DNA from: Parcubacteria group bacterium Gr01-1014_8
Lineage (GTDB): Bacteria > Patescibacteriota > Minisyncoccia > Phycocordibacterales > UBA2100
Assembly: GCA_007376385.1 (NCBI GenBank)
Contig: VMGC01000001.1
Location: 343,898-407,897 of the forward strand
DNA length: 64,000 nucleotides
Direction of reading: 5' to 3'
Shown: positions 12,029 to 64,000 of the stretch, in pieces
How the letters are laid out: each line of letters begins with the position of its first letter
How positions within the stretch are numbered: position 1 is the stretch's first letter
Position numbers and translations under genes: made by a program
Notes under the pieces: generated by a model
What the model was told of the DNA's origin: nothing
Databases searched by the model: none
What the model saw: the letters and a program-made list of their open reading frames with translations, nothing else

Positions 12029-12750
12029 GCGCTGTTCAGAGTGCGACGGTGTGTGGCGTATTGTCACTTGTGTTGGCGATTCTTTTCCCCATGCGAACTT
12101 TCGCGGGCTACGCTGAAAGTGCGTATTACTCGCAGTCGACCTACTACTCGCAGTCGACCTACTACTCGCAGTCGACCTACTATTCACAGGGAACATATGT
12201 GACGACGTTTAGCAATAACGCGACGGCGGGAACTAATTTCACCGTCGCGGGCACGATTAATAAAGGTTCCGGTTCATTCGTCATCGACCATCCGCTCGAT
12301 CCAAAAAATAAGCTGCTCTATCACTCGTTCGTTGAATCTCCTGACGTGAAGAATTTCTACGACGGTATAGCAACGCTCGACACAAAGGGCGAAGCAGTCA
12401 TTCGGCTTCCCGCGTATTTTATGGCACTCAACAAAGAATTTCGGTACCAACTAAAACCCATTGGCGGGCCGCAGCCTGATCTGCACATTAAGGATGAAAT
12501 CTCAGGAAATCGCTTTACGATTGCGGGTGGCGGGCCACGCGGGCGCGTATCGTGGCAGGTCACGGGGATCCGTCATGATCCGTACATCGAAGCGAATCCT
12601 ATCGAGGTCGAGGTAAAAAAAGGTACAGATCCCGAGAAAAGCGTCTTCGTGCTCTATGGAGGGTTTTTGCACGAGGACATTTATCCGCAGACGATCCAAC
12701 CCGCGATATCTACATATATGAGAAAGATACTTAGTTTGTTCGGCAATTGA
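12019..12750 (+). CDS. Secreted paralog C with a (YYSQST)n repeat and the family C-terminal domain
   Basis: Signal peptide. A perfect 18-nt tandem repeat encodes YYSQST x3-4. C-terminal 'FVIDHPLDPKNKLLYHSFVESPDVKNFYDG…VSWQVTGIRHD'. Confidence 0.7.
   Translation: MQMSAVQSATVCGVLSLVLAILFPMRTFAGYAESAYYSQSTYYSQSTYYSQSTYYSQGTYVTTFSNNATAGTNFTVAGTINKGSGSFVIDHPLDPKNKLLYHSFVESPDVKNFYDGIATLDTKGEAVIRLPAYFMALNKEFRYQLKPIGGPQPDLHIKDEISGNRFTIAGGGPRGRVSWQVTGIRHDPYIEANPIEVEVKKGTDPEKSVFVLYGGFLHEDIYPQTIQPAISTYMRKILSLFGN
12124..12195 (+). repeat. 18-nt tandem repeat (tactactcgcagtcgacc) x3 plus degenerate flanking copies, coding YYSQST
   Basis: Direct reading of sequence 12121-12195. Confidence 0.8.
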
Positions 12751-13991: not shown

Positions 13992-13992
13992 T

Positions 13993-20217: not shown

Positions 20218-21407
20218 ATCTTATTTTGATCGTGGGAGGCATAGGGCTATTTTTGCTTGGTATTTTTTTCATAGTCTCTATGCCAGTAGGTGCAATCGTC
20301 GTCGAAGACGTCGTTGAAGATCTAGGGGAATGTCTCCACGAGAATCAGGCAGAATTAGAGAGTTTTCCATGCGTGAGGGAGAAAATACAGTCGCTTCTTC
20401 TCGAATTGCCTGCGCATGAGATCATGCGTGCGGTTGAAGCGTCGTTTCCATATCAGTGTCATGCTGTTGGTCATATTCTCGGGCAAGAAACGTACAAGAT
20501 GCTCGGCTCAGTGGAAAGCGCCTTCGGAGCATGCTCTCCTGCCTCGTGCGTTCACGCGTGCACACACGGAGTTGTCGGGGAAGTCTTTCTCTCTACACCC
20601 GGGATAGGAGGATTGCCAGAAGAATGGAGGCATCCGAACATCGACTTGATACGCTCGGAAGGCTCTTTGCTTTGCAGGGATAGAACGACATGTCATGCGG
20701 TCGGTCATGTACTTTTTTTACTTTTTTTTGAGGACCTCTCAGGTGCGCTTTCTATGTGTGATGAAATCGCAGGAGATGAGGCATTTACATGTCACAGCGG
20801 CATATTTATGGAGAATGGTGGCGGGACATTTGCGCGCACGATCCCTGGCTTAGATGTTGAGCGGGAAGAGTATCGTGACCCCACTGATCTTCTTTCTCCC
20901 TGCAATACGGTCGCTGACCGCTACAAAAAGGCATGCTTTAGATTCTTGTATATAAATCAATATGACTATTTTAAGGATCACGGCATTACTGATCCGCATA
21001 CGATCTTCAACACGCAGACGGATGCCTGCGGTATTGTCACGGATCGTTTGCAGCGCAGAGCATGTTTCAGAAGCGTGGGCTGGTCTCTCCAGGGGATGCG
21101 CCGACCGCTTCTTTCCGCGCACGTGCTCTGCAACTCGCTGACTGTCATAGAGGATCGCAGTGCATGTCTTTTTGGCGTGAGCGATTCATTCACGGATCAG
21201 GGTATGAGCATCTCGGAAACCGGAGGGGCGTGCAGAGCAGTAAACAATGAGCAAGGCAAACGCGCATGTTATGGAGGAATTTTCATGGCACTTTCAGACA
21301 GAGAACCTGGTCTTCTCCCAAGCGTGTGCGATGGCGCTTCTGACAGCGCATGTCAAATGTCGTTGCAGGAATTTTTAGCGAATCCAGACAGTCGTGATTC
21401 TATTTAG
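20208..21407 (+). CDS. Membrane-anchored Cys/His-rich repeat protein, family member 5 (CHAVGHILG, CTHGVVGEV, CHAVGHVLF, CHSGIFMEN)
   Basis: N-terminal TM 'LILIVGGIGLFLLGIFFIVSMPV'. Family motifs. Confidence 0.65.
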   Translation: MKSHLILIVGGIGLFLLGIFFIVSMPVGAIVVEDVVEDLGECLHENQAELESFPCVREKIQSLLLELPAHEIMRAVEASFPYQCHAVGHILGQETYKMLGSVESAFGACSPASCVHACTHGVVGEVFLSTPGIGGLPEEWRHPNIDLIRSEGSLLCRDRTTCHAVGHVLFLLFFEDLSGALSMCDEIAGDEAFTCHSGIFMENGGGTFARTIPGLDVEREEYRDPTDLLSPCNTVADRYKKACFRFLYINQYDYFKDHGITDPHTIFNTQTDACGIVTDRLQRRACFRSVGWSLQGMRRPLLSAHVLCNSLTVIEDRSACLFGVSDSFTDQGMSISETGGACRAVNNEQGKRACYGGIFMALSDREPGLLPSVCDGASDSACQMSLQEFLANPDSRDSI

Positions 21408-21433
21408 ACACTATTTACTCAATTGTTGGCACA

Positions 21434-22549
21434 ATGAGTCACATGATACAGCGTCTCACAGTGGGTGTGCTCGTGGCTGTTCTATCAGCGTTAGGAAGTG
21501 TCTTCTGGTTTCTGTACAACGAACCCCCTCATCATTGTCTGAAAGAAGAAAACGTACGGTGGTGCTTCATACACGAGGCGCAAGCTATTGCCGCAATAGA
21601 GGGAGCACAGAAGGCATATTCATATGTGCACGATGTCATTAAAAAATATAGCGATTATAAGACCGAACACCTGGCACTTCATTATGTTGGTATGAAGGCA
21701 TATGACGAAGCGGGATCAGTAGACAAGGCTTTTACGCTCATCTATGGGGAAGATCAGATGGCTGATGATTCGATATATTACAGCGGTTTTCAACACGGGC
21801 TCTTCGAGCGATATTTTGAGGTGAATGGAGCACAGACACCGACTGTGCTCGGGAATGAGACGTGTCACACATATGCTTCATCGGAGTCCCTCGATGAGTT
21901 CACCAGTACCCGCACGCGAGTGCTCGCAGCGGAATGCTATCACGCGATCGGTCACGCGATAATGTTCATATCTGACAATAATGTTGAGGCATCACTTTCG
22001 GCATGTGACGCGTTCCCTCATCAATGGGAGCAACGGTGGTGTTACCATGGAGTGTTCATGGAGAATTATTATCTACACATTCCCGAATATCATCTCGGCG
22101 TCGCACGGCCGGATGCCGAAGGGCTTTCTGTAGTCGAGCTTTGCATGCGCGTTGGGGAAAAATATCGGGGAGAGTGCAGTTATTTCGTGGGCTGGGTGTA
22201 TATGCAAATGCATCCAAACGACTTTGCCGGAGCATTTTCCGAATGCGCGATGTTTCCGCAGAGTGATGCAAGGATATGTATCGCACGCGTGGGACGTTTT
22301 TTTGTAGCCGCATCGTCCGCAGGCGATCTCTCGGGCATGATCGCAACGTGTGAGAAGGCGCACCCATTCCTGCGTGAATGTTTGTACGGAACAGCCATCG
22401 GATTGAACCAGGGAGTGGGTTTGTTTGAATATGTCAATAAAGGCAAAGGGCTATGTGATGTTCTTGAGGACGATATGCACGCGGATTGTGAAAACGCCCT
22501 GACACGGTCTCATGAAAGTCTTGCGCGGAAAGTAATAACCGAACTCTGA
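21434..22549 (+). CDS. Membrane-anchored Cys/His-rich repeat protein, family member 6 (CYHAIGHAIMF, CYHGVFMENY)
   Basis: N-terminal TM 'LTVGVLVAVLSALGSVFWFLY'. Family motifs. Confidence 0.65.
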   Translation: MSHMIQRLTVGVLVAVLSALGSVFWFLYNEPPHHCLKEENVRWCFIHEAQAIAAIEGAQKAYSYVHDVIKKYSDYKTEHLALHYVGMKAYDEAGSVDKAFTLIYGEDQMADDSIYYSGFQHGLFERYFEVNGAQTPTVLGNETCHTYASSESLDEFTSTRTRVLAAECYHAIGHAIMFISDNNVEASLSACDAFPHQWEQRWCYHGVFMENYYLHIPEYHLGVARPDAEGLSVVELCMRVGEKYRGECSYFVGWVYMQMHPNDFAGAFSECAMFPQSDARICIARVGRFFVAASSAGDLSGMIATCEKAHPFLRECLYGTAIGLNQGVGLFEYVNKGKGLCDVLEDDMHADCENALTRSHESLARKVITEL

Positions 22550-27175: not shown

Positions 27176-28375
27176 ATGCGTTTGTATATGAAGATAAGTG
27201 TCCTCTCAGCATTCTTGTTTGTGGGGCTCGCAGTGTTTTTCTTTATGCCGGGTACTCGGATGGCGCGCGCGGCAGAGGCCTGTTCCACCGGGCACGAAAA
27301 ACAAGATGAGCAGATACAATGCTGGCTCGATATCATGCGTGCGGAAATGAGAGATGATGGAATAGGAGCCGCAATGAAGGTCTTTTCGTACGTATACAAC
27401 ACGTACCCCACATTCTCAGCTACAGGCTGTCATGTGCACGCGCATCGCGTGGGCGATATGGCGTATTATGAATTTTATCTTGCGAATCCTGATCTTGATG
27501 CTCTGGAATTTCCGCAAGAGACGGCAAGTTGCGGGTATGGCTTCTATCACGGCTTTTTCGAGCATCTTATTCAGGATAATCCCGATCCGTCATACATAAC
27601 GTCCACATGCACATATTTTCATGAGCGGCTCGGGCACATGCTCGGCGACATGAGACAGATCTGCTATCACGGGAGCGGGCATGGACTTATGCTTGCGAGA
27701 ACAGAAGAAGTAACGAACGATGATTGGGGGAATGCACAGGCGTTCGCAACAAAGCCGCTCGAACAGTGCGAGAAACTTTCTGAGGCGACAGTGCGTGAAA
27801 AAGAAGAATGTCGTGAGGGGATCTATAATGTGCTTGTTGATTGGATGGAGGGGAAAGAGTATGGATTTGTCTACAACGACATCCACCCGTTCGCAGTTTG
27901 CGATGAGCTTCAAAATTACGATTGGAAAAAGGCATGTTACTACGAAATGTCCCAGAAATTGGACCGAGTATCGGCACGTGACCCTGTGCAGCTTGTCAAA
28001 ATTATTGCTCCGATACAGGACCCGAAATTACAACGCACCGCATTGTTGGTAGGTATCGCGGGAATGATGCAGTCAGTTGCAAACACCAATGCGTACGAAT
28101 CCTTCATGCGTACGTGTGCGCAATTGGGCGAGAAGTCCAGGAACGACTGTGCCATCGGCGTCATTTCCGGGCTCTTCGAGCACGGGCTTCCTCAGGAAGA
28201 GTATGTGAATGCCATACGCGCATGTCGTCTCGAGGAAATTGGATCATCCGGGATGGCTGCTTCGTGCTGGAAAGAGGTTTCGAATAAATTAATACGTTTT
28301 TATACCCCCCAGCGTGTGCAAGAGATCTGTCCAGAATTTCCAGAGGAATACCGATCTCTGTGCAGCAAGAAATGA
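27176..28375 (+). CDS. Membrane-anchored Cys/His-rich repeat protein, family member 7 (CHVHAHRVG, CGYGFYHGF, CYHGSGHGL)
   Basis: Signal/TM 'ISVLSAFLFVGLAVFFFMPG'. Family motifs. Confidence 0.65.
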   Translation: MRLYMKISVLSAFLFVGLAVFFFMPGTRMARAAEACSTGHEKQDEQIQCWLDIMRAEMRDDGIGAAMKVFSYVYNTYPTFSATGCHVHAHRVGDMAYYEFYLANPDLDALEFPQETASCGYGFYHGFFEHLIQDNPDPSYITSTCTYFHERLGHMLGDMRQICYHGSGHGLMLARTEEVTNDDWGNAQAFATKPLEQCEKLSEATVREKEECREGIYNVLVDWMEGKEYGFVYNDIHPFAVCDELQNYDWKKACYYEMSQKLDRVSARDPVQLVKIIAPIQDPKLQRTALLVGIAGMMQSVANTNAYESFMRTCAQLGEKSRNDCAIGVISGLFEHGLPQEEYVNAIRACRLEEIGSSGMAASCWKEVSNKLIRFYTPQRVQEICPEFPEEYRSLCSKK

Positions 28376-28384: not shown

Positions 28385-28590
28385 TTTATTTCCGAGCCGA
28401 GGAGCAAACACAGGTTCAATACCTCGGAGCTTGCTCCGAGGAACCTTTATCTGTCGAGGATAGCAAGCGAAATGCGAAAGTGCAGGTTTCGCATTTCCGA
28501 GCGACACAGACAGCAAAGGTTCAAAGCCCCGCGGCTTGCCTGCCTGTGCGATGCACGCAGACAGGCCGCGGAATTTGGGACGCATAACCC
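28385..28590. repeat. MITE-like intergenic hairpin repeat, copy B (ttccgagccgaggagcaaacacaggttc + tacctcggagcttgctccgaggaacc + gaaatgcgaaagtgcaggtttcgcatttc hairpin)
   Basis: Matches the reverse complement of copy A at 23447-23600. Lies between convergent genes 27176..28375 and 28447..29997 and overlaps the 3' end of the latter ORF. Confidence 0.6.
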
Positions 28591-29997
28591 TTCAACAAGC
28601 TGCGGGTCGGATGCCTTTGCAAATACGAGCACGATCTTTTGGCACTGCAGAAGCTCTTGCTCTAACGTAAATTGGCCGCAAAATGCAATGGAGTGCCGTG
28701 CGCCCTTTTCAGGTGTCTCACGATGGAAGAAACCCGACACAACGCCGAGAATGCATGCTGCCCATTCTTCTTGATCCATGAGTTGACTGCACTCTTTTGC
28801 CAGATGCGTGAATTCTGGCTCACCGACGCGGCGCCGTACCTCGTCATTTATAAGCGCTTGCATTGATTCGAGCCGTGCTGCCTTTACGGGTATCTGTCTT
28901 AGTAACGAGAAACCGTCTTCAAGTGAGTATTTGTTGTGGCGGATGTATCCGACACCGATCTCTATGGCGCATCCCGTCCAATATTCTGGCACTGCCCTGC
29001 AAACACCGAGGGGATCGTCATGCCTGAACGAGATCCCGTATTCACCGGAACCAAGAGCTATTGAGAGCGAATTGAATACGCCGGAAGCACACCGTGTTCT
29101 TTCCCACTCTGGTTGAATTGCGCTCTCGCATGAGAGGAGTGCGCTTTTCGCCATTTTGTATTCGTCACCCCACTTGGTTGAATCAATAGAGTCGAACAGT
29201 GCATGTCCGATGCCGTGATAACACGCGCCGACAGCATTGTGCCGTGATGTTGGCGTTCCTAGATGTGTGCTATCTCGCATCTTTTCGCAGTAGGCAACGG
29301 TTTGAGCGACTCCCTCATCTCCTGTGTCGCGAAGGGCTTGTTCCATGAATCCATGATAGAAACCGAAATTGCAATACGTGGTTTCTATCCTGTCAGCGAC
29401 AGCGCCTCCGGCTTTGTATAGTTGATATGTCTGTATGCCGATATAGTGCGAAACGTCGTGACAATTTCTCTGAAATAACGGATCCTCAGCATTCCACTTT
29501 TCGAAAGCGTCGAACACTGCGTCGAGTCCTCCTTTCTTAAGAATACGGTCTATTTCACCGTCCCAGCAGTAGGCTTTTATTGTGTCGGTCGAGGAGTCGA
29601 GACATGCTTCGACACTTTCTCCTTCATATCCTAGGACGATAATTCTTCCCTGCACCATTGGGTGCATATGATCGTGGAATGGCCAGACCCCTGCACGCGA
29701 AAAAGTAAATTCCCATGGATCACCGGGCTGAATCGCGTGTGTTGGGTCGAAATCCGAATAGCGTCCATGGGACGGATGAGAATCCGACGCAGGCCACGAA
29801 TCTGATATCGATGAATTAACGAAGATGACCGTGTCACCTTTGTTGATAGTAAGCCTCTCAGGCGAGAATCCGGTATTGGTTCTTGTGATGGTGTATGTCT
29901 GCGGAGAAAGATATGCGTATGCCATTCCTGCAAGAACCGCGACAGCAAGAAAAATAACTGCCAAAAGCTTAACAGAAAGAGAAAAATGCGCGCGCAT
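28447..29997 (-). CDS. Secreted protein with an N-terminal cupredoxin-like His-cluster domain plus the Cys/His-rich repeat domain, family member 8 (CNFGFYHGF, CYHGIGHAL)
   Basis: Signal peptide 'LLAVIFLAVAVLAGMAYA'. '…WPASDSHPSHGRYSDFDP…WPFHDHMHPMVQGRIIVLG'. The C-terminal ~45 codons read through the repeat element, so the true stop may be earlier. Confidence 0.6.
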   Translation of the reverse strand: MRAHFSLSVKLLAVIFLAVAVLAGMAYAYLSPQTYTITRTNTGFSPERLTINKGDTVIFVNSSISDSWPASDSHPSHGRYSDFDPTHAIQPGDPWEFTFSRAGVWPFHDHMHPMVQGRIIVLGYEGESVEACLDSSTDTIKAYCWDGEIDRILKKGGLDAVFDAFEKWNAEDPLFQRNCHDVSHYIGIQTYQLYKAGGAVADRIETTYCNFGFYHGFMEQALRDTGDEGVAQTVAYCEKMRDSTHLGTPTSRHNAVGACYHGIGHALFDSIDSTKWGDEYKMAKSALLSCESAIQPEWERTRCASGVFNSLSIALGSGEYGISFRHDDPLGVCRAVPEYWTGCAIEIGVGYIRHNKYSLEDGFSLLRQIPVKAARLESMQALINDEVRRRVGEPEFTHLAKECSQLMDQEEWAACILGVVSGFFHRETPEKGARHSIAFCGQFTLEQELLQCQKIVLVFAKASDPQLVEGLCVPNSAACLRASHRQASRGALNLCCLCRSEMRNLHFRISLAILDR

Positions 29998-30085: not shown

Positions 30086-31261
30086 ATGAAGTTCAGACTG
30101 AGTGTCTATATATGGCCTATTATCGCTGCGGCAGCGTTGCTCGGGGGCGCCTTTTTCTACGTTAATTTTTCCTCGCGTGCTGAAGCTGCAGCCATAGTCG
30201 AAACATGTAAAAAGGAGCCAGACAACATGTTCTGTTACGAACGCGAAGTGCCGAAGCTGTATTCTTCTTACTCGATCCCGGAACTATTTGAATTCATCCG
30301 CGAGATCCGTCGTCTCGATCCGTCGTATCAGTTTTGCCATGTACTTGCGCATAAGCTCGGCGAAGAGGCCGTTGCAGAAGACCCGTCGCGCTGGCTGGAT
30401 ATGATCCCTCTGAACCCGCGTGATGGAATGTGCAGCAACGGATTCATTCATGGCGTCATCGTAGGCAGGTTTCGCAATGACACGCTCGACAAGGAAACGC
30501 TCGAGAAAACGATACCTGATCTTGCGAGGGCGTGCGAACCGCGGGCGAACTGGTCTCCCAGTTCGTTGGACCAAGCGATTTGCTATCACGGCATGGGCCA
30601 CCTTTTTATGTTCATAACGAACGCTGACATGCGGCTCTCGCTGGATACGTGCGCACGCATATCGCGAAGTGCAACTGGGGATTTTATGCGCGTCTGCCGA
30701 GAAGGCGTATTCATGCAAACATATCAGCCGCTTGAGCCGGACGATTTTGCTCTGCTAGAATTACTTCCTGAAAAACCGACGAAAGAAAATTACCGGCGCT
30801 TATGCGCAGCGTACGCGAACGATCCAGAAGAAGGAGCGTGTCTTCGGGAAGCGTGGCCGTTCTTCCGCACCGACATTCTTAAAGGAACTGGTGCCATCAG
30901 TTTTTGCTCAGGACAACCAACCAAGGAGGAGGAAGAGATGTGCTACGAATCGGCTTCAACTATCATAGGAAGACAGCTTCTCGGGAACGATGAAAAAGCA
31001 AGTGCGGCGTGTGATGCTCTTCCTCAGAAATGGCAGAGCATATGCTACATTGCGGCTGCTCAAGCACTGCTGGAAGAAGATAGGGCGACGGGGAAGGCTG
31101 CAATTTCTCTCTGCGAGAGAGGAAAGAATGGTGTTGCTGATACCTGCTTAAAGACACTTGCGATGCGAGCAAACTGGATATTTTCAAGCGGTGCAGCGGA
31201 AAAGGACGCATTTTGCGAGGCATTGCCGCGATTCAAGGAGGAGTGCGATCGGCGGCGCTAA
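30086..31261 (+). CDS. Membrane-anchored Cys/His-rich repeat protein, family member 9 (CHVLAHKLG, CSNGFIHGV, CYHGMGHLF)
   Basis: TM 'VYIWPIIAAAALLGGAFFYV'. Family motifs. Confidence 0.65.
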   Translation: MKFRLSVYIWPIIAAAALLGGAFFYVNFSSRAEAAAIVETCKKEPDNMFCYEREVPKLYSSYSIPELFEFIREIRRLDPSYQFCHVLAHKLGEEAVAEDPSRWLDMIPLNPRDGMCSNGFIHGVIVGRFRNDTLDKETLEKTIPDLARACEPRANWSPSSLDQAICYHGMGHLFMFITNADMRLSLDTCARISRSATGDFMRVCREGVFMQTYQPLEPDDFALLELLPEKPTKENYRRLCAAYANDPEEGACLREAWPFFRTDILKGTGAISFCSGQPTKEEEEMCYESASTIIGRQLLGNDEKASAACDALPQKWQSICYIAAAQALLEEDRATGKAAISLCERGKNGVADTCLKTLAMRANWIFSSGAAEKDAFCEALPRFKEECDRRR

Positions 31262-57895: not shown

Positions 57896-58897
57896 TCAGT
57901 ACTGGTATGGGTAGTACGAGCCTTGGTATGGCGATGGATAGTATCCGAACCCGCCGTTTATCCATTGTGATGCTCTGTTGTTACTTTCGTTTGTTTCCGC
58001 GACGGAATTGTACGGGTCAACGGATACGGAGAATGTGCCGCCGCCTGGTGTTACTCGGTTGAATCGAAGCGTATTCTCGATGTGGTCGCCCTTTCCGAGG
58101 CTTCTCTGTTGTGGCGATGTGTACGGAGTGAGTGGGGACGTTGGCAATTCAGCAGTGAAGTACCACGCGCCCGATGGACCGCCAAGGTTCGCTATGTCGA
58201 ATTTCACTGCGACCACTTCGTTGTCGGATGATGGTGCTCGATTTACGAACATTCCGCTGTATTGGTCTATCACACCTACTGCAATGATGCGGACAACGAG
58301 GTCAGGTTTTCCTTGTGATACTGCCGGCTGTGTTGGGGTTACTACGGGAGTAGAGGTTGCAGTCCCCGCAGCTGCGGGAGTGATCGTGACCGTTGCATTT
58401 CCTTGTGCTCTAACCGAAGCAGCCTGTGTCGACGTGCTGGTTGTTGTCGCCTGCTGGAAGATGACCGAAATCTGCACATCAACAGGCGAAGTGCCGGTGA
58501 GAACCGGAACAAGCTTCACGTTCTTTGCATTCGAGTCGCCGACTACCTGTGCAGAGCCGCAGGGAAGCGCACTGACGACGCCAGCGGCATTAATAGCGCG
58601 GAATTGGAAACCGTCGCGGCATTGATACAAAAGTGCAAAACTGCCGCTTCCTGTACCTGTCGGAATTGTGTATTTCCATGACAAATCGAGCGGCTGCCCT
58701 GATGCAACGCTCCGCTGGGAGAGTGTTATTTGGATGGTGCCGGTTGAGCTTCGGTTGAAGAGGGAAGAGAAACCAGATGATGCGATGTTCAAAAAGTGAA
58801 ATGCGCCCCACACCACAATGGCGATGAGGATGATGAACCCAGCGACGGCTAGGATATTCGAGATAAGACCTGCGCGCTGCGGTGAGTGTTCTGACAT
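57896..58897 (-). CDS. Membrane-anchored surface protein with a C-terminal CARDB-like domain
   Basis: N-terminal TM 'LISNILAVAGFIILIAIVVWGAF'. Thr/Ser/Ala-rich linker. C-terminal 'DLVVRIIAVGV…NLGGPSGAWYFTAEL…VDPYNSVAETNESNN' CARDB-like pattern. Confidence 0.5.
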   Translation of the reverse strand: MSEHSPQRAGLISNILAVAGFIILIAIVVWGAFHFLNIASSGFSSLFNRSSTGTIQITLSQRSVASGQPLDLSWKYTIPTGTGSGSFALLYQCRDGFQFRAINAAGVVSALPCGSAQVVGDSNAKNVKLVPVLTGTSPVDVQISVIFQQATTTSTSTQAASVRAQGNATVTITPAAAGTATSTPVVTPTQPAVSQGKPDLVVRIIAVGVIDQYSGMFVNRAPSSDNEVVAVKFDIANLGGPSGAWYFTAELPTSPLTPYTSPQQRSLGKGDHIENTLRFNRVTPGGGTFSVSVDPYNSVAETNESNNRASQWINGGFGYYPSPYQGSYYPYQY

Positions 58898-58994: not shown

Positions 58995-59693
58995 TTGACA
59001 AAAGTGATGTATTATAGCGACATTATGCCTCAGTACTCACACGACATAGGCACAAAAAAGGCTCCGAAATCGGTTTTTGTCGCCGCATCGGTGATGCTTT
59101 TCTTTCTGTCGCTGTCTGCTGCCGATTCTATCGGATTTGTTCCGTACTACGTCGATGGTTCAACGCCGCGTGAGAATGTTGCGCTCTCGAATCTACCGGA
59201 ACTTGGAGAGGAATTTACCGAGCCTATAGCTCAAGACGAAACGACTCCACTCCAAAAGGGAGTCGAACCTTCGCATATTTCCATTCCAAAAATAAATCTT
59301 GATCTTCCGGTCTCGAACCCCAGCACACGCGATGTCGAGGCGCTGGACGCGATATTGAAGTCCGGTCCTGCACGGCACGTTGATTCGGCTCTTCTCGGAG
59401 AGAAAGGAAATGTGCTCATTTTTGGCCACAGCTCTCACTTGCCGGTCGTTCACAACCAAATGTACAAAGCATTCAATCGCGTGCCGGAACTTACCTCTGG
59501 GGACATAGTTACCATCACTGCGGGTGGCAAGGACTATATTTACAGTGTTACATCGCTCCGCCGAGCAGATGCGAACGAAGAGTTGATAGACGTCTCACGA
59601 ACAGGTAACCGACTCACGCTTGTTACCTGCGACACGCTCACATCAAAAAGTACCCGCTGGGTATTGGAGGCGGAGTTGATAGGGACGTACTAA
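58995..59693 (+). CDS. Sortase-family transpeptidase
   Basis: N-terminal TM. 'LIFGHSSHL' His. 'RLTLVTCDT' TLxTC Cys motif. Arg 'WVLEAEL' region. Confidence 0.75.
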   Translation: MTKVMYYSDIMPQYSHDIGTKKAPKSVFVAASVMLFFLSLSAADSIGFVPYYVDGSTPRENVALSNLPELGEEFTEPIAQDETTPLQKGVEPSHISIPKINLDLPVSNPSTRDVEALDAILKSGPARHVDSALLGEKGNVLIFGHSSHLPVVHNQMYKAFNRVPELTSGDIVTITAGGKDYIYSVTSLRRADANEELIDVSRTGNRLTLVTCDTLTSKSTRWVLEAELIGTY

Positions 59694-59714: not shown

Positions 59715-60359
59715 CTATGCGTCAACTTCTGGTCCGCGCCTTGGAAACTGACGAGGCGCCGCTTTTGGTGCAAATTCAGGAGGTCTGGGCGCCGCTCTTG
59801 GCGCAGATTCAGGTGCCTTCGGTTCGGCATTAGGTGTCTTAGGTGCAGGTCTAGCTGCTCCTTCGGGCAAATTAAAATTCATCCATCCGATGCATTTTCT
59901 GCCGCTATCATCAGTTGTGATGAAGGTAGCAAATGTAGTTTTTTGCGTTACTTTCGTCATCGATACATCGATCTGTTTGACCGCTTTAAGGGCTGGGAAT
60001 GCTTGCCAAATCCTTCTTTCTGTAAGTGCTGGTACAAGTTTTCTCGCGGGCGAGCCTGGAGCATCCATCTCAGCAAGCTTCAGCAAATTTCTCACCGGCG
60101 TCTTACTGGAATCAGTTTGCTTTTTTTCCCAGTCCCAAATGCATTTCACCACATCGCGCAGTTCCTTAAGGTGTTCATGACCTGGTGGCAGTGACTGAGC
60201 TTCAGCTTCGTTAACGGCATAGCCGTCGAGGGCTAATGCGCCGGCGGTCAAACCGACGCCTCCTAACACTCGGGCACCAGCTGCCACAACTCCGAGCCCT
60301 GCCAGTTTCGTAAATGCCCTTCGAGACATCTCACCGAATCCGCCTTGATTTTCAGTCAT
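59715..60359 (-). CDS. Secreted protein with a twin-arginine (Tat) signal and a Pro/Ala-rich C-terminus, unknown function
   Basis: 'SRRAFTKLAGLGVVAAGARV' matches S/T-R-R-x-F-L-K plus an h-region. C-terminal 'PKTPNAEPKAPESAPRAAPRPPEFAPKAAPRQ'. Confidence 0.5.
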   Translation of the reverse strand: MTENQGGFGEMSRRAFTKLAGLGVVAAGARVLGGVGLTAGALALDGYAVNEAEAQSLPPGHEHLKELRDVVKCIWDWEKKQTDSSKTPVRNLLKLAEMDAPGSPARKLVPALTERRIWQAFPALKAVKQIDVSMTKVTQKTTFATFITTDDSGRKCIGWMNFNLPEGAARPAPKTPNAEPKAPESAPRAAPRPPEFAPKAAPRQFPRRGPEVDA

Positions 60360-60486
60360 AAAATCAGATATATCTAATCAGTAACACGTTAAGCGTATGC
60401 GGAAGAAGGTTCAGTCGCAAGGGGTTGACAAGGATATCTTTTATGATAAAATGTCGCGGTTAATATAACACCATAGTTTCATCGTT

Positions 60487-61698
60487 ATGTACAGTCATTA
60501 TCGAGACGGTGTCGTGCGAGCGTTGACGGTTTCGTTGTTTGTAATTGCGGTTGTCCTCACTGCTACTGCAGCTTTTGCCGTTGTTGCTCCGCAAGGCATT
60601 GCGTTTGCGGAAGAGTCCGAACCCGACTGGGGTTCATGGGGCGGTGATTGTTGCACAGACGCTCCGTACTCCGAACCAGATTGGGGTTCATGGGGCGGTG
60701 ATTGTTGCACAGACGCTCCGTACTCCGAACCAGATTGGGGTTCATGGGGCGGTGAATGCTACGACTGCGGCTACGATCCGAACGGCAACCCTGATGATGG
60801 TTGTTACTACGACTGTGGTTACGATCCGAACGGAAATCCCGTAGATGATGGCTGTTACGATTACTACTGCGGTGACGATGATGGTTGTGACTACTACTGC
60901 GGTGATGATGATTACTGCTGCGATGATTACGATGATGATTTTGGAGACGATGTCTTCTGTGATGACTACTGTGATGATGAGTTCTACGACGAGTATGAAG
61001 AGGGGACTTCGTTCCGCGACTCAAGCGGCGCACGTTACTCGTTCTCTGCTCCGTCATTCCGTTCTTCTCCGACGTCCTACAGCGCACCGATCCAAGTCTC
61101 GAATAGACCGGCTCCTAGCTACCCGAGCTATCCAAGTTACCCAAGCAATCCGAGTCGCCCGAGTCAGACTGTTCACTTCCCATCTTCGACGAACATCACG
61201 AACATCGACAACTCGATAAACGATAGCTTCAATACTTACAACAGCTACAACACGGCTATCGCACAATCAACAACGGGTGGTGCTGCGGTTGCTGCGGTAA
61301 CTCCGGGACACACGGTTGCGTACGTCCTTCCGACCTACTCGTACACAGCGCCGACGTACACCTATACTGCGCCTGTGGTTCGAGCAACTCCTGCATACGT
61401 GGCACTCTCGCAGATACCGTACACAGGCTTCGACCTCGGCCCAGTTGGCAATGCTATCTACTGGATGTCGCTTCTCAGCTTTGCAGTTGCCGGAGCGTAC
61501 CTCTTGGTCTACTACAATGGAGGCGCACTCGCCCTGGCCGGGCAGGCATTCGCAGGGATGAAGAGTTCGCGAAAGGAAGGGGAGTACACACTTCCTGAAC
61601 TTCCGGTCGCTCCTGTAGTGAAAAAAGAAATTGCGTCCAACACAAAGGATACGATGAAATTCACTGAAAAGGGGATTGTTATCGACCGAAACTTCTAA
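60487..61698 (+). CDS. Membrane-anchored, extremely acidic Cys/Asp/Tyr-rich repeat protein, (EPDWGSWGGDCCTDAPYS)x3 followed by (CYDCGYDPNGNPxDDGCY)x2 and (DYYCGDDDxC)x2, then a PS(Y/N)PS-rich region and a hydrophobic segment near the C-terminus
   Basis: N-terminal TM 'LTVSLFVIAVVLTATAAFAVVA'. Perfect 54-nt tandem repeats at 60619-60762. The segment 'CYDCGYDPNG…CDDYCDDEFYDEYEE' is ~50% Asp/Cys/Tyr. Later 'YWMSLLSFAVAGAYLLVYY' TM. Confidence 0.7.
   Translation: MYSHYRDGVVRALTVSLFVIAVVLTATAAFAVVAPQGIAFAEESEPDWGSWGGDCCTDAPYSEPDWGSWGGDCCTDAPYSEPDWGSWGGECYDCGYDPNGNPDDGCYYDCGYDPNGNPVDDGCYDYYCGDDDGCDYYCGDDDYCCDDYDDDFGDDVFCDDYCDDEFYDEYEEGTSFRDSSGARYSFSAPSFRSSPTSYSAPIQVSNRPAPSYPSYPSYPSNPSRPSQTVHFPSSTNITNIDNSINDSFNTYNSYNTAIAQSTTGGAAVAAVTPGHTVAYVLPTYSYTAPTYTYTAPVVRATPAYVALSQIPYTGFDLGPVGNAIYWMSLLSFAVAGAYLLVYYNGGALALAGQAFAGMKSSRKEGEYTLPELPVAPVVKKEIASNTKDTMKFTEKGIVIDRNF
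60619..60762 (+). repeat. 54-nt coding tandem repeat (2 perfect copies plus 1 variant) followed by degenerate 42-48-nt repeats up to about 60920
   Basis: gaacc(a/c)ga(t/c)tggggttcatggggcggtgattgttgcacagacgctccgtactcc repeated in tandem. Confidence 0.85.
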
Positions 61699-61739
61699 GT
61701 CCGTCGCTCCCCTTGAAATGGAGTTCCAAAGTGAAAGCA

Positions 61740-61772
61740 GTGCCGCGCCGCCCCGAAAGGGCGGCGCGGCAC
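61740..61772 (+). terminator. Very stable GC stem-loop (gtgccgcgccgccc-cgaaag-gggcggcgcggcac), GNRA-like loop, downstream of the acidic-protein gene. Candidate terminator or structured element.
   Basis: 14-bp perfect GC-rich stem. Followed by caagaaaaag rather than a U-tract, so intrinsic-terminator assignment is tentative. Confidence 0.35.
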
Positions 61773-61938
61773 CAAGAAAAAGATTGACTGTTGTTCTTTG
61801 AGATCGTAAAAGGTTCTATACTTTGGCAAGTATTGTTGTCTGGTATTTCCTTGCCTGGCCAATCGAACGTAACCATTTCGTTGTGTTTAGCTGGCTCCGC
61901 AAGGGGCGATTCCCTGCAACAACAGAAGGAATAGTGTC

Positions 61939-62235
61939 GTGAGAATCCAAATCCTCAAGGCGCTCGGTATGGCAGCTGCCGCACTAACGCTGTCCACTGC
62001 CCTGGGGCTGGCACAAAATGCCCCGTCAAAAGCCGCCGCTTTGGGTTGTGTTGACGGAACGGCCGTCGTAGATGTAGAGCCCAGTGGTCCGAAAGGATCC
62101 ATGGCGTGGGGGACGTGCCTTTGGGTGCGTTCTACCTGCCGTGAAGGTTACGGGCACTGCGTTTGCGCCGCGGCCAAACACAAGGGAGCACGACCCCGTT
62201 CTGGGGTTTGTGAGCCTCTTCCCGAAAGGAAGTGA
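61939..62235 (+). CDS. Small secreted Cys-rich protein (6 Cys), unknown
   Basis: Signal peptide 'ILKALGMAAAALTLSTALGLAQNA'. Mature ~70 aa with C-x…C-x…C-x5-C-x-C pattern. Confidence 0.35.
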   Translation: MRIQILKALGMAAAALTLSTALGLAQNAPSKAAALGCVDGTAVVDVEPSGPKGSMAWGTCLWVRSTCREGYGHCVCAAAKHKGARPRSGVCEPLPERK

Positions 62236-62294
62236 CGGTGACTGTCTCTGGGGGGCGCATTCCCGCTCCCCAGCGGCATTTTTTCAGATAGGGT

Positions 62295-63785
62295 ATGTTT
62301 GATCGACTTAGAGAAATATTTTCAATGGATGCACGCTCACTCGCGGCAGTGCGTATTTTTTTGGCGTGTATCGTACTTGTAGACCTCTCGACTCGTCTTG
62401 CGGACATCGCCGTCTTTTACGGCGACGCAGGTTTGTTCCCCTCTGAATTGATATATACGTTTTGGACGGGGAATCTAGTGTGGTCCTTGCATACGCTTTG
62501 GGGTGGACCACTCATTCTTCTTGTCGGACTTTTTTTCGCACATGCCCTTGCAGCAGTTGCACTTCTTGTCGGTTATAAAACAAGGCTCGCGACAATCATT
62601 ACCTGGGTTCTTTTAGTCTCGCTTCACAATGCCAATCCTCTCATATTGCAAGGAGAGGATGTTCTTTTGCGCGCCGTTCTCTTTGTGAGCATCTTTCTTC
62701 CGCTTGGTGCTGCTTTTTCGATAGACAGTTTGCAGAGGCGTGAAAAAATAACCGGCTCTATTCTATCGGGTTGGACCATTGCGTTCCTCCTTCAGGATGC
62801 GTTCCTCTATTTCTTTGCCTCTATCTATAAGCACAGCCCGGAATGGCTTTCTGGTAATGCCATCTACTATTCTCTTTCAATAGACACCTACGCCACACCA
62901 TTTGGAAGATTCTTGCTGCAATTTCCGGAGCTCCTGACGTTTTTGACCTACAGCATTCTTATATTCCAAAGCTTTGCGCTGTTTCTTCTGTTCTCGCCGT
63001 ATCGCACTCCGTATCTCCGAACATTTGCTGTAGGTTCTTTGATATTCATGCACTCATCGCTCGCGCTCTGCATGCACCTAGGAATGTTCTCGTCTGTCGC
63101 AATTGCAACACTTCTCGGCTTCATACCTCCATTGGTTTGGGATTCACTGATCATCTATTCAAAAAAATTAATCCCGCTTGAGAAATGGAGTGTTCGCGTC
63201 CACAGACTGTTCAGCTCGAAAGAGCGGCAGGCGGATGATACTCGATTCTCCAGGCGCGTTGCGATGACAGTATCCCTCCTCGGCATTTTCTATATCACAT
63301 ATATATTTGTGTGGCAGTCAATGAACGTACTTAATCCGGGACAGTATGTGCCATTCAACTATGGTTTCGAAATGCCGGCAAAAGTGTTGCGGATAGACCA
63401 ACGATGGAATCTGTTTGCTCCGAATCCGAACAGAAATGATGGTTGGTTGGTCGCTGTTGCAACATTGAACAATGGTGAACAAGTGGACCTTTTTCGTGGA
63501 GGCACACCCGTCTCATTCTCCAAGCCAGAAAAAGTCTTTTCCATCTATCCGAGTCCTCGTTGGCGTCGCTATGTCTTGCATCTCCGGAGTCAAGAAAATG
63601 CTAGGTACAGGCCGTACTATGCGCAATATCTTTGCAACTCATGGGATCAACAGCACGACATTGCAATGCGGGCAGACAACATTGAATTGATATACATGTT
63701 GGAGTGGACACCTGCTCCGGGCTCGCCGTCGCCGACACCTCGGCCCGTTTCGCTATTGAAGCAGGAATGTCTGGCAGGGGAATAA
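62295..63785 (+). CDS. HTTM-domain (vitamin K-dependent gamma-carboxylase-like) polytopic membrane protein
   Basis: N-terminal 'MDARSLAAVRIFLACIVLVDL…' matches the HTTM start consensus (D-x-RSLA-x-FRI). Multiple TM helices across the first ~290 aa. About 200 aa soluble C-terminal domain. Confidence 0.6.
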   Translation: MFDRLREIFSMDARSLAAVRIFLACIVLVDLSTRLADIAVFYGDAGLFPSELIYTFWTGNLVWSLHTLWGGPLILLVGLFFAHALAAVALLVGYKTRLATIITWVLLVSLHNANPLILQGEDVLLRAVLFVSIFLPLGAAFSIDSLQRREKITGSILSGWTIAFLLQDAFLYFFASIYKHSPEWLSGNAIYYSLSIDTYATPFGRFLLQFPELLTFLTYSILIFQSFALFLLFSPYRTPYLRTFAVGSLIFMHSSLALCMHLGMFSSVAIATLLGFIPPLVWDSLIIYSKKLIPLEKWSVRVHRLFSSKERQADDTRFSRRVAMTVSLLGIFYITYIFVWQSMNVLNPGQYVPFNYGFEMPAKVLRIDQRWNLFAPNPNRNDGWLVAVATLNNGEQVDLFRGGTPVSFSKPEKVFSIYPSPRWRRYVLHLRSQENARYRPYYAQYLCNSWDQQHDIAMRADNIELIYMLEWTPAPGSPSPTPRPVSLLKQECLAGE

Positions 63786-64000
63786 CAGGTAGATAGTAAC
63801 CTTGGGGCCTGTTCACAGTTGCTTTACTGGAATCCGCCGAAAACGCCCAACGCTCTTGGCGCAGGGATCGACGGGACGGCCTTTTTTACTGTACGTACTT
63901 GCTGAATAAGTTCAGATACATTTGGCACTCCTCTAACTAGGGGAGAATGAGGCAATTCAACATATTCAGAGGCACGAAAGGATGGTTGTGGCTGTACGAG

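What the first reader, a model, noticed from the sequence alone, without database searches (positions are those of the whole stretch)
60487..63785. Extremely acidic Cys/Asp/Tyr-rich repeat protein, small Cys-rich secreted peptide and an HTTM (VKGC-like) membrane protein in one block, next to a sortase and a Tat substrate
ORF 60487..61698 has an N-terminal TM, then three (EPDWGSWGGDCCTDAPYS) repeats encoded by perfect 54-nt tandem repeats, implying a recent or unstable expansion. It then carries (CYDCGYDPNGNPxDDGCY)x2 and (DYYCGDDDxC)x2 units and a DDxD/E-rich tail, about 50% Asp/Cys/Tyr over ~120 aa, then a PSYPS-rich segment and a hydrophobic stretch. Downstream, after a strong GC hairpin, come a 98-aa secreted 6-Cys peptide and an HTTM-domain protein whose N-terminus matches the VKGC-like consensus. 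HTTM proteins are membrane oxidoreductase or carboxylase-like enzymes of largely unknown bacterial function. Possible relationships include an HTTM enzyme acting on Glu/Asp- or Cys-rich extracytoplasmic substrates, or a metal (Ca2+, Zn2+)-binding surface matrix protein. The adjacent sortase (58995..59693) and CARDB protein add to a surface-assembly theme.
Basis: partly seen in the sequence, partly recalled or inferred. Interest (0 to 1): 0.7.

Follow-up and report, generated by a model that had tools for sequence, protein, structure and literature searches.

The report
Sortase-linked acidic surface protein beside GGCX-like enzyme
In a tiny uncultured groundwater bacterium (Parcubacteria), a very acidic, disordered surface protein with a sortase-type anchor sits next to a small secreted cysteine protein and a bacterial relative of the human vitamin K carboxylase, but comparison with related genomes suggests they are neighbours by shared gene order, not a proven enzyme-substrate system.

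Summary
The ORFs exist as described, with corrections. The 54-nt repeat has 2.6 copies at 97% identity, not three perfect ones.

The window comes from Parcubacteria group bacterium Gr01-1014_8. The acidic ORF belongs to a large unannotated Paceibacteria family. Its parts are a signal peptide, hypervariable acidic/aromatic repeats, a conserved "LSQIPYTGFDxGPxGN" motif plus TM helix, and a cytoplasmic tail. Cys-richness is clade-specific.

Its orthologues occupy the same slot (gyrB…sortase…PYTG protein…aaRS-dnaE) in relatives that have no HTTM gene there. The gene also has its own promoter-like site and hairpin. It is therefore most likely a sortase-linked polyanionic surface protein that does not depend on HTTM.

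The 98-aa ORF is unannotated but has a 42%-identical homologue at the same position in a relative.

The HTTM protein models confidently as a full-length GGCX-like enzyme. It keeps the equivalents of Lys218, Trp223 and Phe299 but not the Glu-binding Asn159/His160. Its substrate is unknown.

A link to its neighbours remains possible: small secreted Cys proteins recur upstream, and in five other phyla low-complexity secreted proteins do.

Interest is moderate. These are new variants of known kinds.

The parts
57896..58897 (-). Membrane-anchored CARDB-domain surface protein, transcribed divergently from the sortase
   Evidence: Pfam CARDB E 4.8e-8. The same gene sits next to the sortase in L001, L103-L105 and L109, and next to gyrB in L088.
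58995..59693 (+). Sortase with an N-terminal TM helix. His (GHSSH), Cys (LVTCD) and Arg (STRW) are present by eye.
   Evidence: Pfam Sortase E 2.2e-19. NCBIfam generic sortase 40.8 bits against a cutoff of 39.35. All class-specific models (A-F, GN) fall far below their cutoffs.
59715..60359 (-). 214-aa protein with a twin-arginine-like motif (SRRAFTK) and a Pro/Ala/Lys-rich C-terminus
   Evidence: Sequence. A homologue with DRREFLTG lies at L001 4629-5051. No family model matched.
60425..60452 (+). Sigma-70-like promoter (TTGACA-16-TAAAAT, extended TG) upstream of the acidic gene
   Evidence: 11 of 12 matches. Equivalent sites precede the orthologues in L001 (5118-5145) and L105 (7799-7826).
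60487..61698 (+). Acidic PYTG-family surface protein (403 aa). Layout: signal peptide or anchor aa 1-43; acidic D/G/Y/C repeat region aa 44-173; S/P/Y/N/T region with NIDNSINDSFN; QIPYTG aa 309-314; TM aa 319-342; cytoplasmic tail ending in a beta-hairpin aa 388-401.
   Evidence: 80 homologues found; composition; family alignment invariants L307, T313, G314, Y338; AlphaFold secondary structure and disorder.
60616..60755 (+). 54-nt tandem repeat, 2.6 copies, encoding (S)EPDWGSWGGDCCTDAPY(S). One unit is missing in a second assembly.
   Evidence: TRF score 266 at 97% matches; 2 synonymous differences between copies 1 and 2; L109 lacks exactly 54 nt.
61411..61428 (+). QIPYTG motif, an LPXTG-like candidate sortase cleavage site
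   Evidence: Q309, I310, P311, Y312 are nearly invariant and T313, G314 invariant across 81 sequences. The 57-aa module finds 514 protein clusters at E<=1e-3.
61441..61512 (+). Transmembrane helix following the PYTG motif
   Evidence: AlphaFold helix 319-342 with block pLDDT 87-89; conserved hydrophobic segment.
61738..61774 (.). 17-bp G+C hairpin after the acidic gene (terminator-like; T tail only on the minus strand)
   Evidence: z -5.5 and -6.4. Analogous hairpins follow the orthologues in L001 (6505-6532) and L105 (9378-9401).
61939..62235 (+). Unannotated 98-aa secreted protein with 6 Cys. Four are conserved (C37, C67, C74, C91); the pair C60/C76 is extra.
   Evidence: 42% identity, E 1e-18, to the ORF at the same position in L001. 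It is absent from protein databases and from the L109 gene calls.
62248..62283 (+). Intrinsic-terminator-like hairpin plus T-tract between the small ORF and HTTM
   Evidence: 10-bp stem with 8 GC pairs, then TTTTT. The fold z-score is only -1.3. An analogous site lies at L105 9965-9991.
62295..63785 (+). GGCX-like HTTM membrane enzyme with a fused C-terminal beta-rich domain. K179 (62829-62831) corresponds to GGCX Lys218.
   Evidence: Pfam HTTM; 100% identical to a protein from Parcubacteria group bacterium Gr01-1014_8 that NCBI names 'Vitamin K-dependent gamma-carboxylase'; profile hit to GGCX at E 1e-9; AlphaFold pLDDT 90.3; Foldseek finds only GGCX.

Best explanation
The block is two separable modules that lie side by side in a conserved 'cell-surface' neighbourhood, between gyrB and an aaRS-dnaE pair, in one clade of Paceibacteria.

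Module 1 is the CARDB protein, the sortase and the acidic protein.
- The acidic protein is exported by an N-terminal signal peptide.
- It displays an intrinsically disordered polyanionic Asp/Gly/Tyr(/Cys) repeat region outside the cell.
- It is held by a conserved 'LSQIPYTGFDxGPxGN' motif plus TM helix that looks like an LPXTG-type sorting signal for the neighbouring sortase (inferred).
- Its repeats evolve fast by slippage.
- The likely role is a cation-binding or adhesive surface coat (inferred).

Module 2 is the 98-aa secreted disulfide protein plus the HTTM enzyme, which is present only in a sub-clade.
- It keeps the quinol-deprotonating Lys and the CO2-stacking Phe but not the Glu-carboxylate binders.
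- It probably carries out quinol/O2-driven chemistry on an extracytoplasmic substrate other than a GGCX-type Glu (inferred).
- Among the neighbours, the small secreted Cys protein is a more likely client than the acidic protein. No client is shown.
For: Shown for the acidic family:
- It has 80 homologues, all from Patescibacteria, Paceibacteria or Kaiserbacteria where a source names them.
- Shared architecture appears. In 48 members the N-terminal region has median D+E 18.5%, K+R 0% and aromatics 25%. Six or more Cys occur in only 7 of 48.
- AlphaFold gives residues 41-280 pLDDT <50, a TM helix at 319-342 and a C-terminal hairpin.

Shown for the PYTG module:
- It finds 514 clusters of 86-654 aa with varied passengers and either short basic tails or long tails.
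- Several PYTG proteins occur per locus.
- A sortase lies upstream in the window/L109, L001, L003, L103-L105, the P0015 locus and L108.

Separability of the modules:
- PYTG orthologues P0015, P0029 and P0055 sit in the same slot with no HTTM gene in the locus.
- L088 has gyrB-CARDB-…-HTTM without a sortase or PYTG protein.
- Promoter-like and terminator-like sites bracket the acidic gene in three lineages.

HTTM:
- Model pLDDT is 90.3 and pTM 0.91.
- The top 16 Foldseek hits are all GGCX, with TM about 0.5 over about 485 columns.
- K179 aligns to K218, W184 to W223, and G263-M-F265-S266 to G297-M-F299-S300. Residue roles are taken from PMC12647623.

Small protein:
- It has a homologue at the same position in L001.
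- A secreted Cys-rich ORF lies directly upstream of HTTM in the window, L001, L002/L005, L003, L103/L104, L105 and L106.
- HTTM-less loci L107 and L108 have none after the PYTG gene.
- The L003 and L085 Cys proteins are homologous (E 4e-8) although gene order differs.
Against: - Sortase cleavage of IPYTG is not shown. In the window protein a conserved 53-aa tail follows the TM helix, which is not typical of a sorting signal.
- PYTG proteins flank HTTM on one or both sides in 8 of 10 Parcubacteria-type HTTM lineages.
- In five other phyla the same HTTM subfamily lies directly downstream of secreted low-complexity repeat proteins. A functional HTTM to repeat-protein link therefore cannot be dismissed.
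- Secreted Cys-rich proteins are common in this genome, about 10 of 56 ORFs in the window. They also occur elsewhere in these clusters. Adjacency of one to HTTM could be chance.
- A terminator-like hairpin separates the small ORF from HTTM.
- All Parcubacteria HTTM loci share wide collinearity with housekeeping genes, so conserved adjacency carries little weight either way.
- Whether this organism has any quinone or sees O2 is unknown.
Confidence: 0.55

Rival explanations
1. The HTTM enzyme matures the small secreted Cys-rich protein encoded just upstream. This would be an SdpB/SdpC-like or RiPP-like pair: the precursor gene is followed by a leaky terminator and then the membrane enzyme, which modifies or processes the exported peptide on the outer face of the membrane.
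For: - A secreted Cys-rich ORF of 65-148 aa lies directly upstream of HTTM in 7 Parcubacteria lineages.
- It is absent after the PYTG gene in the HTTM-less loci L107 and L108.
- The Cys protein and HTTM stay clustered although gene order differs between L003 and L085.
- HTTM relatives are often fused to, or adjacent to, DCC1-like thiol-disulfide oxidoreductase domains.
- There is a weak SdpB-family hit. SdpA and SdpB are required to process secreted SdpC (PMC6818787).
- A terminator-like hairpin between precursor and enzyme appears in the window and in L105.
Against: - The small proteins fall into at least three or four groups with no detectable similarity to each other.
- L088 and L085 have a TM mini-protein, not a Cys protein, directly upstream.
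- Secreted Cys-rich proteins are frequent in this genome and elsewhere in these clusters.
- The SdpB score is 30.8 bits against a cutoff of 178.
- No SdpA-like partner gene was looked for.
Confidence: 0.22
2. One reading: the HTTM enzyme post-translationally modifies the acidic repeat (PYTG) surface proteins. For example it could carboxylate Asp or Glu to make stronger Ca2+/metal-binding sites, giving a bacterial analogue of Gla proteins.
For: - A PYTG acidic protein lies within a few kb of HTTM in 8 of 10 Parcubacteria-type HTTM lineages, on both sides in L103-L106.
- In Hymenobacteraceae (14 loci), Verrucomicrobia (L014, L030), Omnitrophota (L007), Planctomycetota (L006) and Chlamydiae (L015) the same HTTM subfamily lies directly downstream of a secreted low-complexity repeat protein. 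In the screen of +/-8 kb, nearly all such proteins were immediately adjacent to HTTM. L006 and L015 were recognised by eye, not by that screen.
- The catalytic Lys and the CO2-stacking Phe are conserved.
- The bacterial orthologue MloH carboxylates an aspartyl residue, as cited in PMC12647623 and in bioRxiv 10.64898/2026.08.19.745780.
Against: - Orthologous acidic proteins occupy the same slot without HTTM in three of three relatives checked.
- By contig-length matching, none of 17 long contigs carrying family members carries this HTTM.
- HTTM occurs without PYTG neighbours in L085-L087 and L088.
- The acidic gene is bracketed by its own promoter-like and terminator-like sites.
- GGCX Asn159/His160 align to Gly/Glu next to an invariant Asp, which is an unfavourable site for a carboxylate substrate.
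- The repeat proteins in other phyla are Thr/Gly-rich, not acidic.
Confidence: 0.12
3. The PYTG module is not a sortase signal. It is a permanent membrane anchor, and the conserved cytoplasmic tail (…TKDTM…GIVIDRNF) couples the external polyanionic domain to a cytoplasmic partner.
For: - In 47 of 48 family members at least 60 residues follow the motif, and nearly all end in a conserved PRIVIxR-type strand.
- AlphaFold predicts a confident C-terminal beta-hairpin, block pLDDT 85.
- The roughly 25-residue conservation around PYTG is wider than a minimal sorting pentapeptide.
Against: - Paralogues carry the same module followed only by a TM helix and a short basic tail. This is the classical sorting-signal layout (L003 3553-4464 and 9384-10118; P0303, P0313).
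- A sortase gene is syntenic in all loci with enough flank.
- IPxTG-type motifs are accepted by known class C sortases (own knowledge).
Confidence: 0.3

Closest known systems
[quoted passage not shown]
   Same: - HTTM domain and whole-protein fold: Foldseek E 5e-8, TM about 0.5 over about 485 columns.
- Equivalents of Lys218, Trp223 and Gly297-Met-Phe299-Ser300 are kept.
- A beta-rich domain follows the TM core.
   Different: - 496 aa against 758 aa, with 16-17% identity.
- Asn159/His160 (Glu carboxylate binding) are not conserved by alignment.
- No Gla-type substrate or propeptide is known.
- The host is a CPR bacterium in which quinone supply and O2 exposure are unknown.
MloH, the bacterial VKDC orthologue of malonomycin biosynthesis
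   Same: A bacterial GGCX-like enzyme with a fused clamp-like domain. It shows the chemistry can be redirected to Asp (as cited in PMC12647623 and bioRxiv 10.64898/2026.08.19.745780).
   Different: MloH acts on a PKS-NRPS intermediate inside a biosynthetic cluster, and no such cluster is present here. No MloH sequence was available for direct comparison.
SdpB/SdpC (and YitO/YitM) of Bacillus subtilis
   Same: An HTTM-family membrane protein encoded next to a signal-peptide-bearing secreted protein that it helps to process (PMC6818787).
   Different: - The window HTTM scores 30.8 bits against the SdpB cutoff of 178.
- The small protein lacks SdpC's C-terminal hydrophobic toxin domain.
- SdpB lacks the GGCX-like C-terminal domain (own knowledge).
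LPXTG-type sortase substrates, especially IPQTG/VPDTG pilins handled by class C sortases
   Same: N-terminal signal peptide, an [IV]PxTG pentapeptide, a TM helix about 5-10 residues later, basic residues after the helix, and a sortase encoded nearby.
   Different: - The motif is embedded in a roughly 25-residue conserved block (YVSLSQIPYTGFDxGPxGNAxYW).
- Most members have a 60-130-aa conserved cytoplasmic tail.
- No Pfam or NCBIfam model matches.
- The sortase fits no defined class.
Asp-rich, intrinsically disordered cation-binding matrix proteins (e.g. mollusc shell aspein; own knowledge)
   Same: Extreme Asp content, low complexity, predicted disorder, secreted.
   Different: There is no sequence relationship. 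No mineral or metal binding is shown here, and the protein is membrane- or wall-anchored.

Membership tests
HTTM / GGCX-like enzymes (Pfam PF05090) | HTTM domain above the Pfam gathering score | tested here: met
   49.7 bits against a cutoff of 27.7, residues 11-278.
HTTM / GGCX-like enzymes (Pfam PF05090) | Overall fold of GGCX including the extramembrane C-terminal domain | tested here: met
   AlphaFold pLDDT 90.3. The top 16 Foldseek PDB hits are all GGCX, aligned over about 485 columns with TM about 0.5. The next hits have E>1.
HTTM / GGCX-like enzymes (Pfam PF05090) | Catalytic base Lys218 with stacking Trp223, and CO2-stacking Phe299 | tested here: met
   K179 and F265 are invariant in 32 homologues, and W184 in the 25-sequence Parcubacteria subset. 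All align to K218, F299 and W223 in the profile-to-GGCX alignment. This is sequence alignment only.
Gamma-glutamyl carboxylase proper (Glu to Gla) | Glu-carboxylate binding residues Asn159, His160 and Tyr395 | tested here: not met
   Asn159/His160 align to G120/E121, next to invariant D122 (my residue count). Tyr395 lies outside the aligned region and was not tested.
Gamma-glutamyl carboxylase proper (Glu to Gla) | Vitamin K hydroquinone, O2 and CO2 dependence; a propeptide-bearing substrate | not testable with these tools
   This needs biochemistry. No quinone-pathway survey of the genome was possible.
SdpB family (NCBIfam TIGR04033) | Score above the family cutoff | tested here: not met
   30.8 bits against a cutoff of 178.4.
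Sortase (PF04203) | Sortase domain with His/Cys/Arg | tested here: met
   Pfam 69.9 bits. TIGR01076 scores 40.8 against 39.35. GHSSH, LVTCD and STRW are read from the sequence. No class-specific model reaches its cutoff.
LPXTG-type sortase substrate | N-terminal signal peptide; LPXTG-like pentapeptide; hydrophobic helix shortly after it | tested here: met
   N-terminal helix 8-32 with AFA|EE; Q309-IPYTG-314; helix 319-342.
LPXTG-type sortase substrate | Short positively charged tail ending the protein right after the helix | tested here: not met
   The window protein has a 53-aa tail after the TM segment. Paralogues in L003, and P0303 and P0313, do have short basic tails.
LPXTG-type sortase substrate | Cleavage between T and G and attachment to the cell wall | not testable with these tools
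   Needs biochemistry or proteomics.
Tat-exported protein (59715-60359) | Twin-arginine signal recognised by a model; Tat machinery present | tested here: inconclusive
   SRRAFTK plus a hydrophobic stretch is seen by eye. No NCBIfam or Pfam hit at E<=0.1. tatA/tatC were not searched for.

The most novel reading that the evidence does not exclude
A GGCX-like, quinol- and O2-driven enzyme on the outer face of the membrane of a CPR bacterium modifies disordered, low-complexity secreted proteins encoded beside it. Here that would mean carboxylating Asp/Glu of the polyanionic PYTG surface proteins to build a Gla-like, high-affinity Ca2+/metal-binding coat. The recurrent pairing of this HTTM subfamily with secreted repeat proteins in at least five other phyla would then mark a widespread, undescribed bacterial protein-modification system. 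It would also give bacterial HTTM proteins their first natural protein substrates.
Probability: 0.1. Interest if true: 0.9.

Novelty: new variant of a known kind. Interest (0 to 1): 0.5.

Why it matters
- Bacterial HTTM/GGCX homologues are widespread, but I know of no natural protein substrate for them. I did not test this against the literature. This locus and the cross-phylum neighbour pattern nominate concrete candidates that can be tested by co-expression and mass spectrometry: small secreted Cys proteins and secreted low-complexity repeat proteins.
- The 'QIPYTG + TM' module defines a large unannotated set of Paceibacteria surface proteins (514 clusters at 50% identity). It is a probable sorting signal for the CPR sortase. 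That matters for understanding how these episymbiotic, envelope-poor bacteria build and vary their surface.
- The one-unit repeat difference between near-identical populations points to rapid surface variation.

Tried and rejected
- **Spurious acidic ORF:** rejected. It has 80 homologues with shared architecture.
- **Family searches:** Pfam and NCBIfam gave nothing for the acidic protein, the small protein or the Tat-like protein. Pfam gave nothing for ten other PYTG-module proteins.
- **Small ORF homology:** the search of 5.8 billion proteins returned nothing, not even the ORF itself. Homology had to be shown pairwise against L001.
- **Eleven small secreted Cys proteins aligned together:** only the window/L001 and L003/L085 pairs are clearly related.
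- **Single-sequence phmmer of HTTM against PDB:** no hits. A profile was needed.
- **Known RNA in the 61650-62320 gap:** Rfam gathering and E-value scans gave only sub-threshold hairpin matches.
- **AlphaFold of the acidic protein:** mean pLDDT 53, mostly disordered, so no fold search was run.
- **411-439-aa membrane protein (L003, L085, L088) as an HTTM paralogue:** hhalign probability 0.6%. Only a K-x-x-E-W-like motif is shared. Inconclusive.
- **Downstream convergent gene at the window's right end:** no similarity to the ICMT-like protein that follows HTTM in L003 and L103.
- **Literature:** no paper links 'PYTG' to sortase in a meaningful way. The Leptospira VKGC search found nothing in the library.
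- **Metagenome scan for HTTM relatives:** only about 8 useful loci.
- **One-operon reading:** weakened by the promoter-like and terminator-like sites.

Full report
**1. Origin and observation**

The HTTM protein is 100% identical to a protein from Parcubacteria group bacterium Gr01-1014_8 that NCBI names "Vitamin K-dependent gamma-carboxylase". Pfam confirms HTTM (E 4.9e-13), Sortase (2.2e-19) and CARDB (4.8e-8). The acidic ORF, the 98-aa ORF and the Tat-like ORF match no Pfam or NCBIfam model.

Residues 44-173 of the acidic ORF are 27% Asp, 15% Gly, 13% Tyr and 12% Cys (16 Cys). D+C+Y is 52% and net charge about -43.

The 54-nt repeat has 2.6 copies at 97% identity, not three perfect copies. 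Copies 1 and 2 differ at two synonymous positions, and the third copy is truncated. The G+C hairpin at 61738-61774 is real: 17 bp, z -5.5.

**2. Repeat instability**

A second assembly (L109, ENA) covers the same locus. It is 99.94% identical downstream of the repeat and 98.8% upstream. It lacks exactly one 54-nt unit, giving a 385-aa protein. This fits slippage in the population. Collapse of a 140-nt repeat by a k=139 assembler cannot be excluded.

**3. What the acidic protein is**

It has 80 homologues. All that carry a source name come from Patescibacteria, Paceibacteria, Kaiserbacteria or Parcubacteria. They share this architecture:
- an N-terminal signal peptide or anchor;
- a hypervariable tandem-repeat region;
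- an S/P/Y-rich segment;
- a "N.DNSINDSFN" motif;
- in about half, an Ig-like domain;
- a strongly conserved block "YV(S/A)L(S/T)QIPYTGFDxGPxGNAxYW" followed by a TM helix;
- usually a 60-130-aa tail ending "…T.D(S/T)M…G.PRIVI.R".

In 48 members the repeat region has median D+E 18.5%, K+R 0%, aromatics 25% and Gly 15.5%. Only 7 have six or more Cys and 22 have none. Acidity and aromatic content are family traits. Cys-richness is specific to the window's clade.

AlphaFold with the 81-sequence alignment predicts disorder for residues 41-280 (pLDDT <50). It predicts a confident TM helix at 319-342 and a C-terminal beta-hairpin at 388-401.

**4. The PYTG module**

A 57-aa query spanning the module finds 514 clusters at E<=1e-3, and 173 at E<=1e-10, among 1.84 billion representatives. 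The proteins range from 86 to 654 aa.

The passengers differ: tandem Ig-like domains, or acidic/aromatic repeats. Some members end with a short basic tail right after the helix, which is the classical sorting-signal layout. Several PYTG proteins occur per locus.

A sortase gene lies within 10 kb upstream in every related locus with enough flank. The window's sortase has the His/Cys/Arg residues but fits no defined class.

I infer that IPYTG is an LPXTG-type signal for this sortase. The long conserved tail of the window protein is atypical for such a signal and keeps a "permanent anchor" reading alive. I found no literature on this motif. Sortases are known to be enriched in CPR bacteria (PMC6744442).

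**5. Is the acidic protein tied to HTTM?**

In HTTM-bearing relatives the gene order is conserved: pheT-gyrB-(x)-CARDB(-)-sortase-…-PYTG protein-small Cys protein-HTTM-…-aaRS(-)-dnaE(-)-rnhB. This collinearity includes housekeeping genes, so adjacency alone says little.

The decisive control comes from three PYTG orthologues from other Paceibacteria (P0015, P0029, P0055). They sit in the same slot between the sortase cluster and aaRS-dnaE, with no HTTM gene in the locus.

Other points against a link:
- L088 has gyrB-CARDB(-)-membrane protein-TM peptide-HTTM with no sortase or PYTG protein. L085-L087 also lack PYTG.
- HTTM-adjacent orthologues P0004 and P0058 contain no Cys.
- The acidic gene has an 11/12 sigma-70-like promoter and a terminator-like hairpin. 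Both features recur at the orthologues in L001 and L105.

The acidic protein therefore does not depend on HTTM, and nothing points to co-transcription.

**6. The small ORF**

It is absent from the protein collection and from the L109 gene calls. It is nevertheless 42% identical (E 1e-18, pairwise) to the ORF at the same position in L001. Four Cys are conserved, and the window has one extra pair. This looks like a real secreted disulfide-bonded protein.

A signal-peptide-bearing Cys-rich ORF of 65-148 aa lies directly upstream of HTTM in the window, L001, L002/L005, L003, L103/L104, L105 and L106. These ORFs fall into several groups with no detectable similarity to each other.

HTTM-less loci L107 and L108 have no such gene after the PYTG gene. 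The L003 and L085 Cys proteins are homologous and stay near HTTM although gene order differs.

There are caveats:
- About 10 of 56 ORFs in the window are secreted Cys-rich proteins.
- Similar small proteins occur elsewhere in these clusters.
- A terminator-like hairpin separates the small ORF from HTTM here and in L105.

**7. The HTTM enzyme**

AlphaFold gives pLDDT 90.3 and pTM 0.91. Foldseek against the PDB returns only GGCX structures: 15 hits with E<1e-5, about 485 aligned columns and TM about 0.5. All other hits have E>1.

A 32-sequence profile aligns to GGCX at E 1e-9. In that alignment:
- invariant K179 corresponds to the catalytic base Lys218;
- W184 corresponds to Trp223;
- G263-M-F265-S266 corresponds to Gly297-Met-Phe299-Ser300, where Phe299 stacks on CO2;
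- the Glu-carboxylate binders Asn159/His160 correspond to G120/E121, next to invariant D122.

The residue roles come from PMC12647623.

The C-terminal domain carries an invariant Cys pair, C447 and C492. By homology with GGCX it should face outward.

I infer an outward-facing enzyme that uses quinol/O2 chemistry on a substrate unlike GGCX's Glu. MloH shows that such enzymes can carboxylate Asp. SdpB-type HTTM proteins help to process a secreted protein. Many relatives are fused to, or adjacent to, DCC1-like thiol-disulfide oxidoreductase domains.

**8. Cross-phylum neighbour pattern**

I examined 80 genome loci of the same HTTM subfamily from other phyla. A secreted protein or lipoprotein with a low-complexity repeat region lies directly upstream on the same strand, 100-340 nt away where the screen measured it, in:
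- 14 Hymenobacteraceae loci, with Thr/Gly/Ser-rich repeats such as (TTGT)n;
- two Verrucomicrobia loci (L014, L030);
- one Omnitrophota locus (L007);
- one Planctomycetota locus (L006, with a PEP-CTERM end);
- one Chlamydiae locus (L015, with a GGYY/GGHQ tail).

In the screen of +/-8 kb, almost all such proteins were immediately adjacent to HTTM. L006 and L015 were recognised by eye rather than by that screen.

About 60 of the 80 loci lack such a neighbour.

**9. Verdict**

The block is best read as a sortase-linked polyanionic surface protein beside a GGCX-like enzyme module. The two share a conserved surface-gene neighbourhood in one Paceibacteria clade.

Each part is a new variant of a known kind. 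An enzyme-substrate relation between them is possible but unsupported for the acidic protein (about 0.12). It is somewhat more plausible for the small Cys protein (about 0.22).

Noticed in passing
L042, L043, L048, L050, L055, L057, L061, L062, L065, L069, L075, L077, L079, L082 (about 7300-7900 in each); L014 7406-7846; L030 5070-5693; L007 6225-7295; L006 7362-7745; L015 6045-7823: In five other phyla the same HTTM subfamily lies directly downstream of a secreted protein or lipoprotein with a low-complexity repeat region: (TTGT)n, GT-rich, or a GGYY/GGHQ tail. In four Hymenobacteraceae loci (L057, L065, L072, L082) such a protein also lies just downstream.
   Followed up: partly
L003 4545-5780; L085 2439-3698; L088 6011-7330 (plus 62-70-aa TM peptides at L085 3685-3897 and L088 7332-7520): A conserved 411-439-aa multi-TM protein (60% identity between L003 and L085) lies upstream of HTTM. 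It has an 'AKLHETW' motif that resembles the HTTM Lys…Trp catalytic motif. It has no Pfam hit, and hhalign against HTTM was inconclusive.
   Followed up: partly
L003 7941-9260 (-); L103 11474-12937 (-); also L104, L105 and L106: An ICMT/PEMT-like membrane methyltransferase (55% identity between L003 and L103) is convergent directly downstream of HTTM. The window's downstream gene fragment (63824-64000, minus strand) is not similar to it.
   Followed up: partly
L089 439-801: A stand-alone DCC1-like thiol-disulfide oxidoreductase gene (Pfam E 1.3e-14) lies directly upstream of a Parcubacteria-type HTTM. Many more distant homologues are DCC-HTTM fusions.
   Followed up: partly
window 12801-16166, 20208-22549, 27176-28375, 30086-31261; also 16231-17739 (-) and 28447-29997 (-): Seven similar-sized secreted proteins of 367-399 aa have 14-20 Cys each. 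The two that were scanned have no Pfam match. Two further 502-516-aa Cys-rich proteins have an N-terminal cupredoxin-like domain. Whether the seven are paralogues was not tested.
   Followed up: no
window 31-8856: A single ORF of 2941 aa opens the window. It was not examined.
   Followed up: no
window 61699-61938: The 240-nt gap after the acidic gene holds the 17-bp hairpin, whose T-rich tail is on the minus strand only. No minus-strand gene lies to its right and no Rfam family reaches threshold. The hairpin's role and direction are unexplained.
   Followed up: partly
window 61900-62300: G+C rises to 0.60-0.625 over the small ORF, against 0.45-0.52 in the flanking genes.
   Followed up: no
window 12019-12750: A 243-aa secreted protein has (YYSQST)n-like Tyr/Ser/Gln repeats. 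It resembles the repeat part of a PYTG protein in L003 (9384-10118) but has no PYTG motif.
   Followed up: no
P0283, P0278, P0270, P0295, P0303, P0313; L103 7946-9232: A recurrent Ig-like domain of about 90 aa (…PSC.I…L.W.S.NA.SA…G.V…GS..V.P….YTLTV.G..G…CQT…) is the commonest passenger of the PYTG module. It has no Pfam match.
   Followed up: partly
L001 3738-4598; L002 135-728: A secreted protein with (AVPYE)n and (GYPVSVGSPVSV)n repeats, with a weak left-handed beta-helix Pfam hit, lies between the sortase and the acidic gene in two relatives. It is absent from the window.
   Followed up: no
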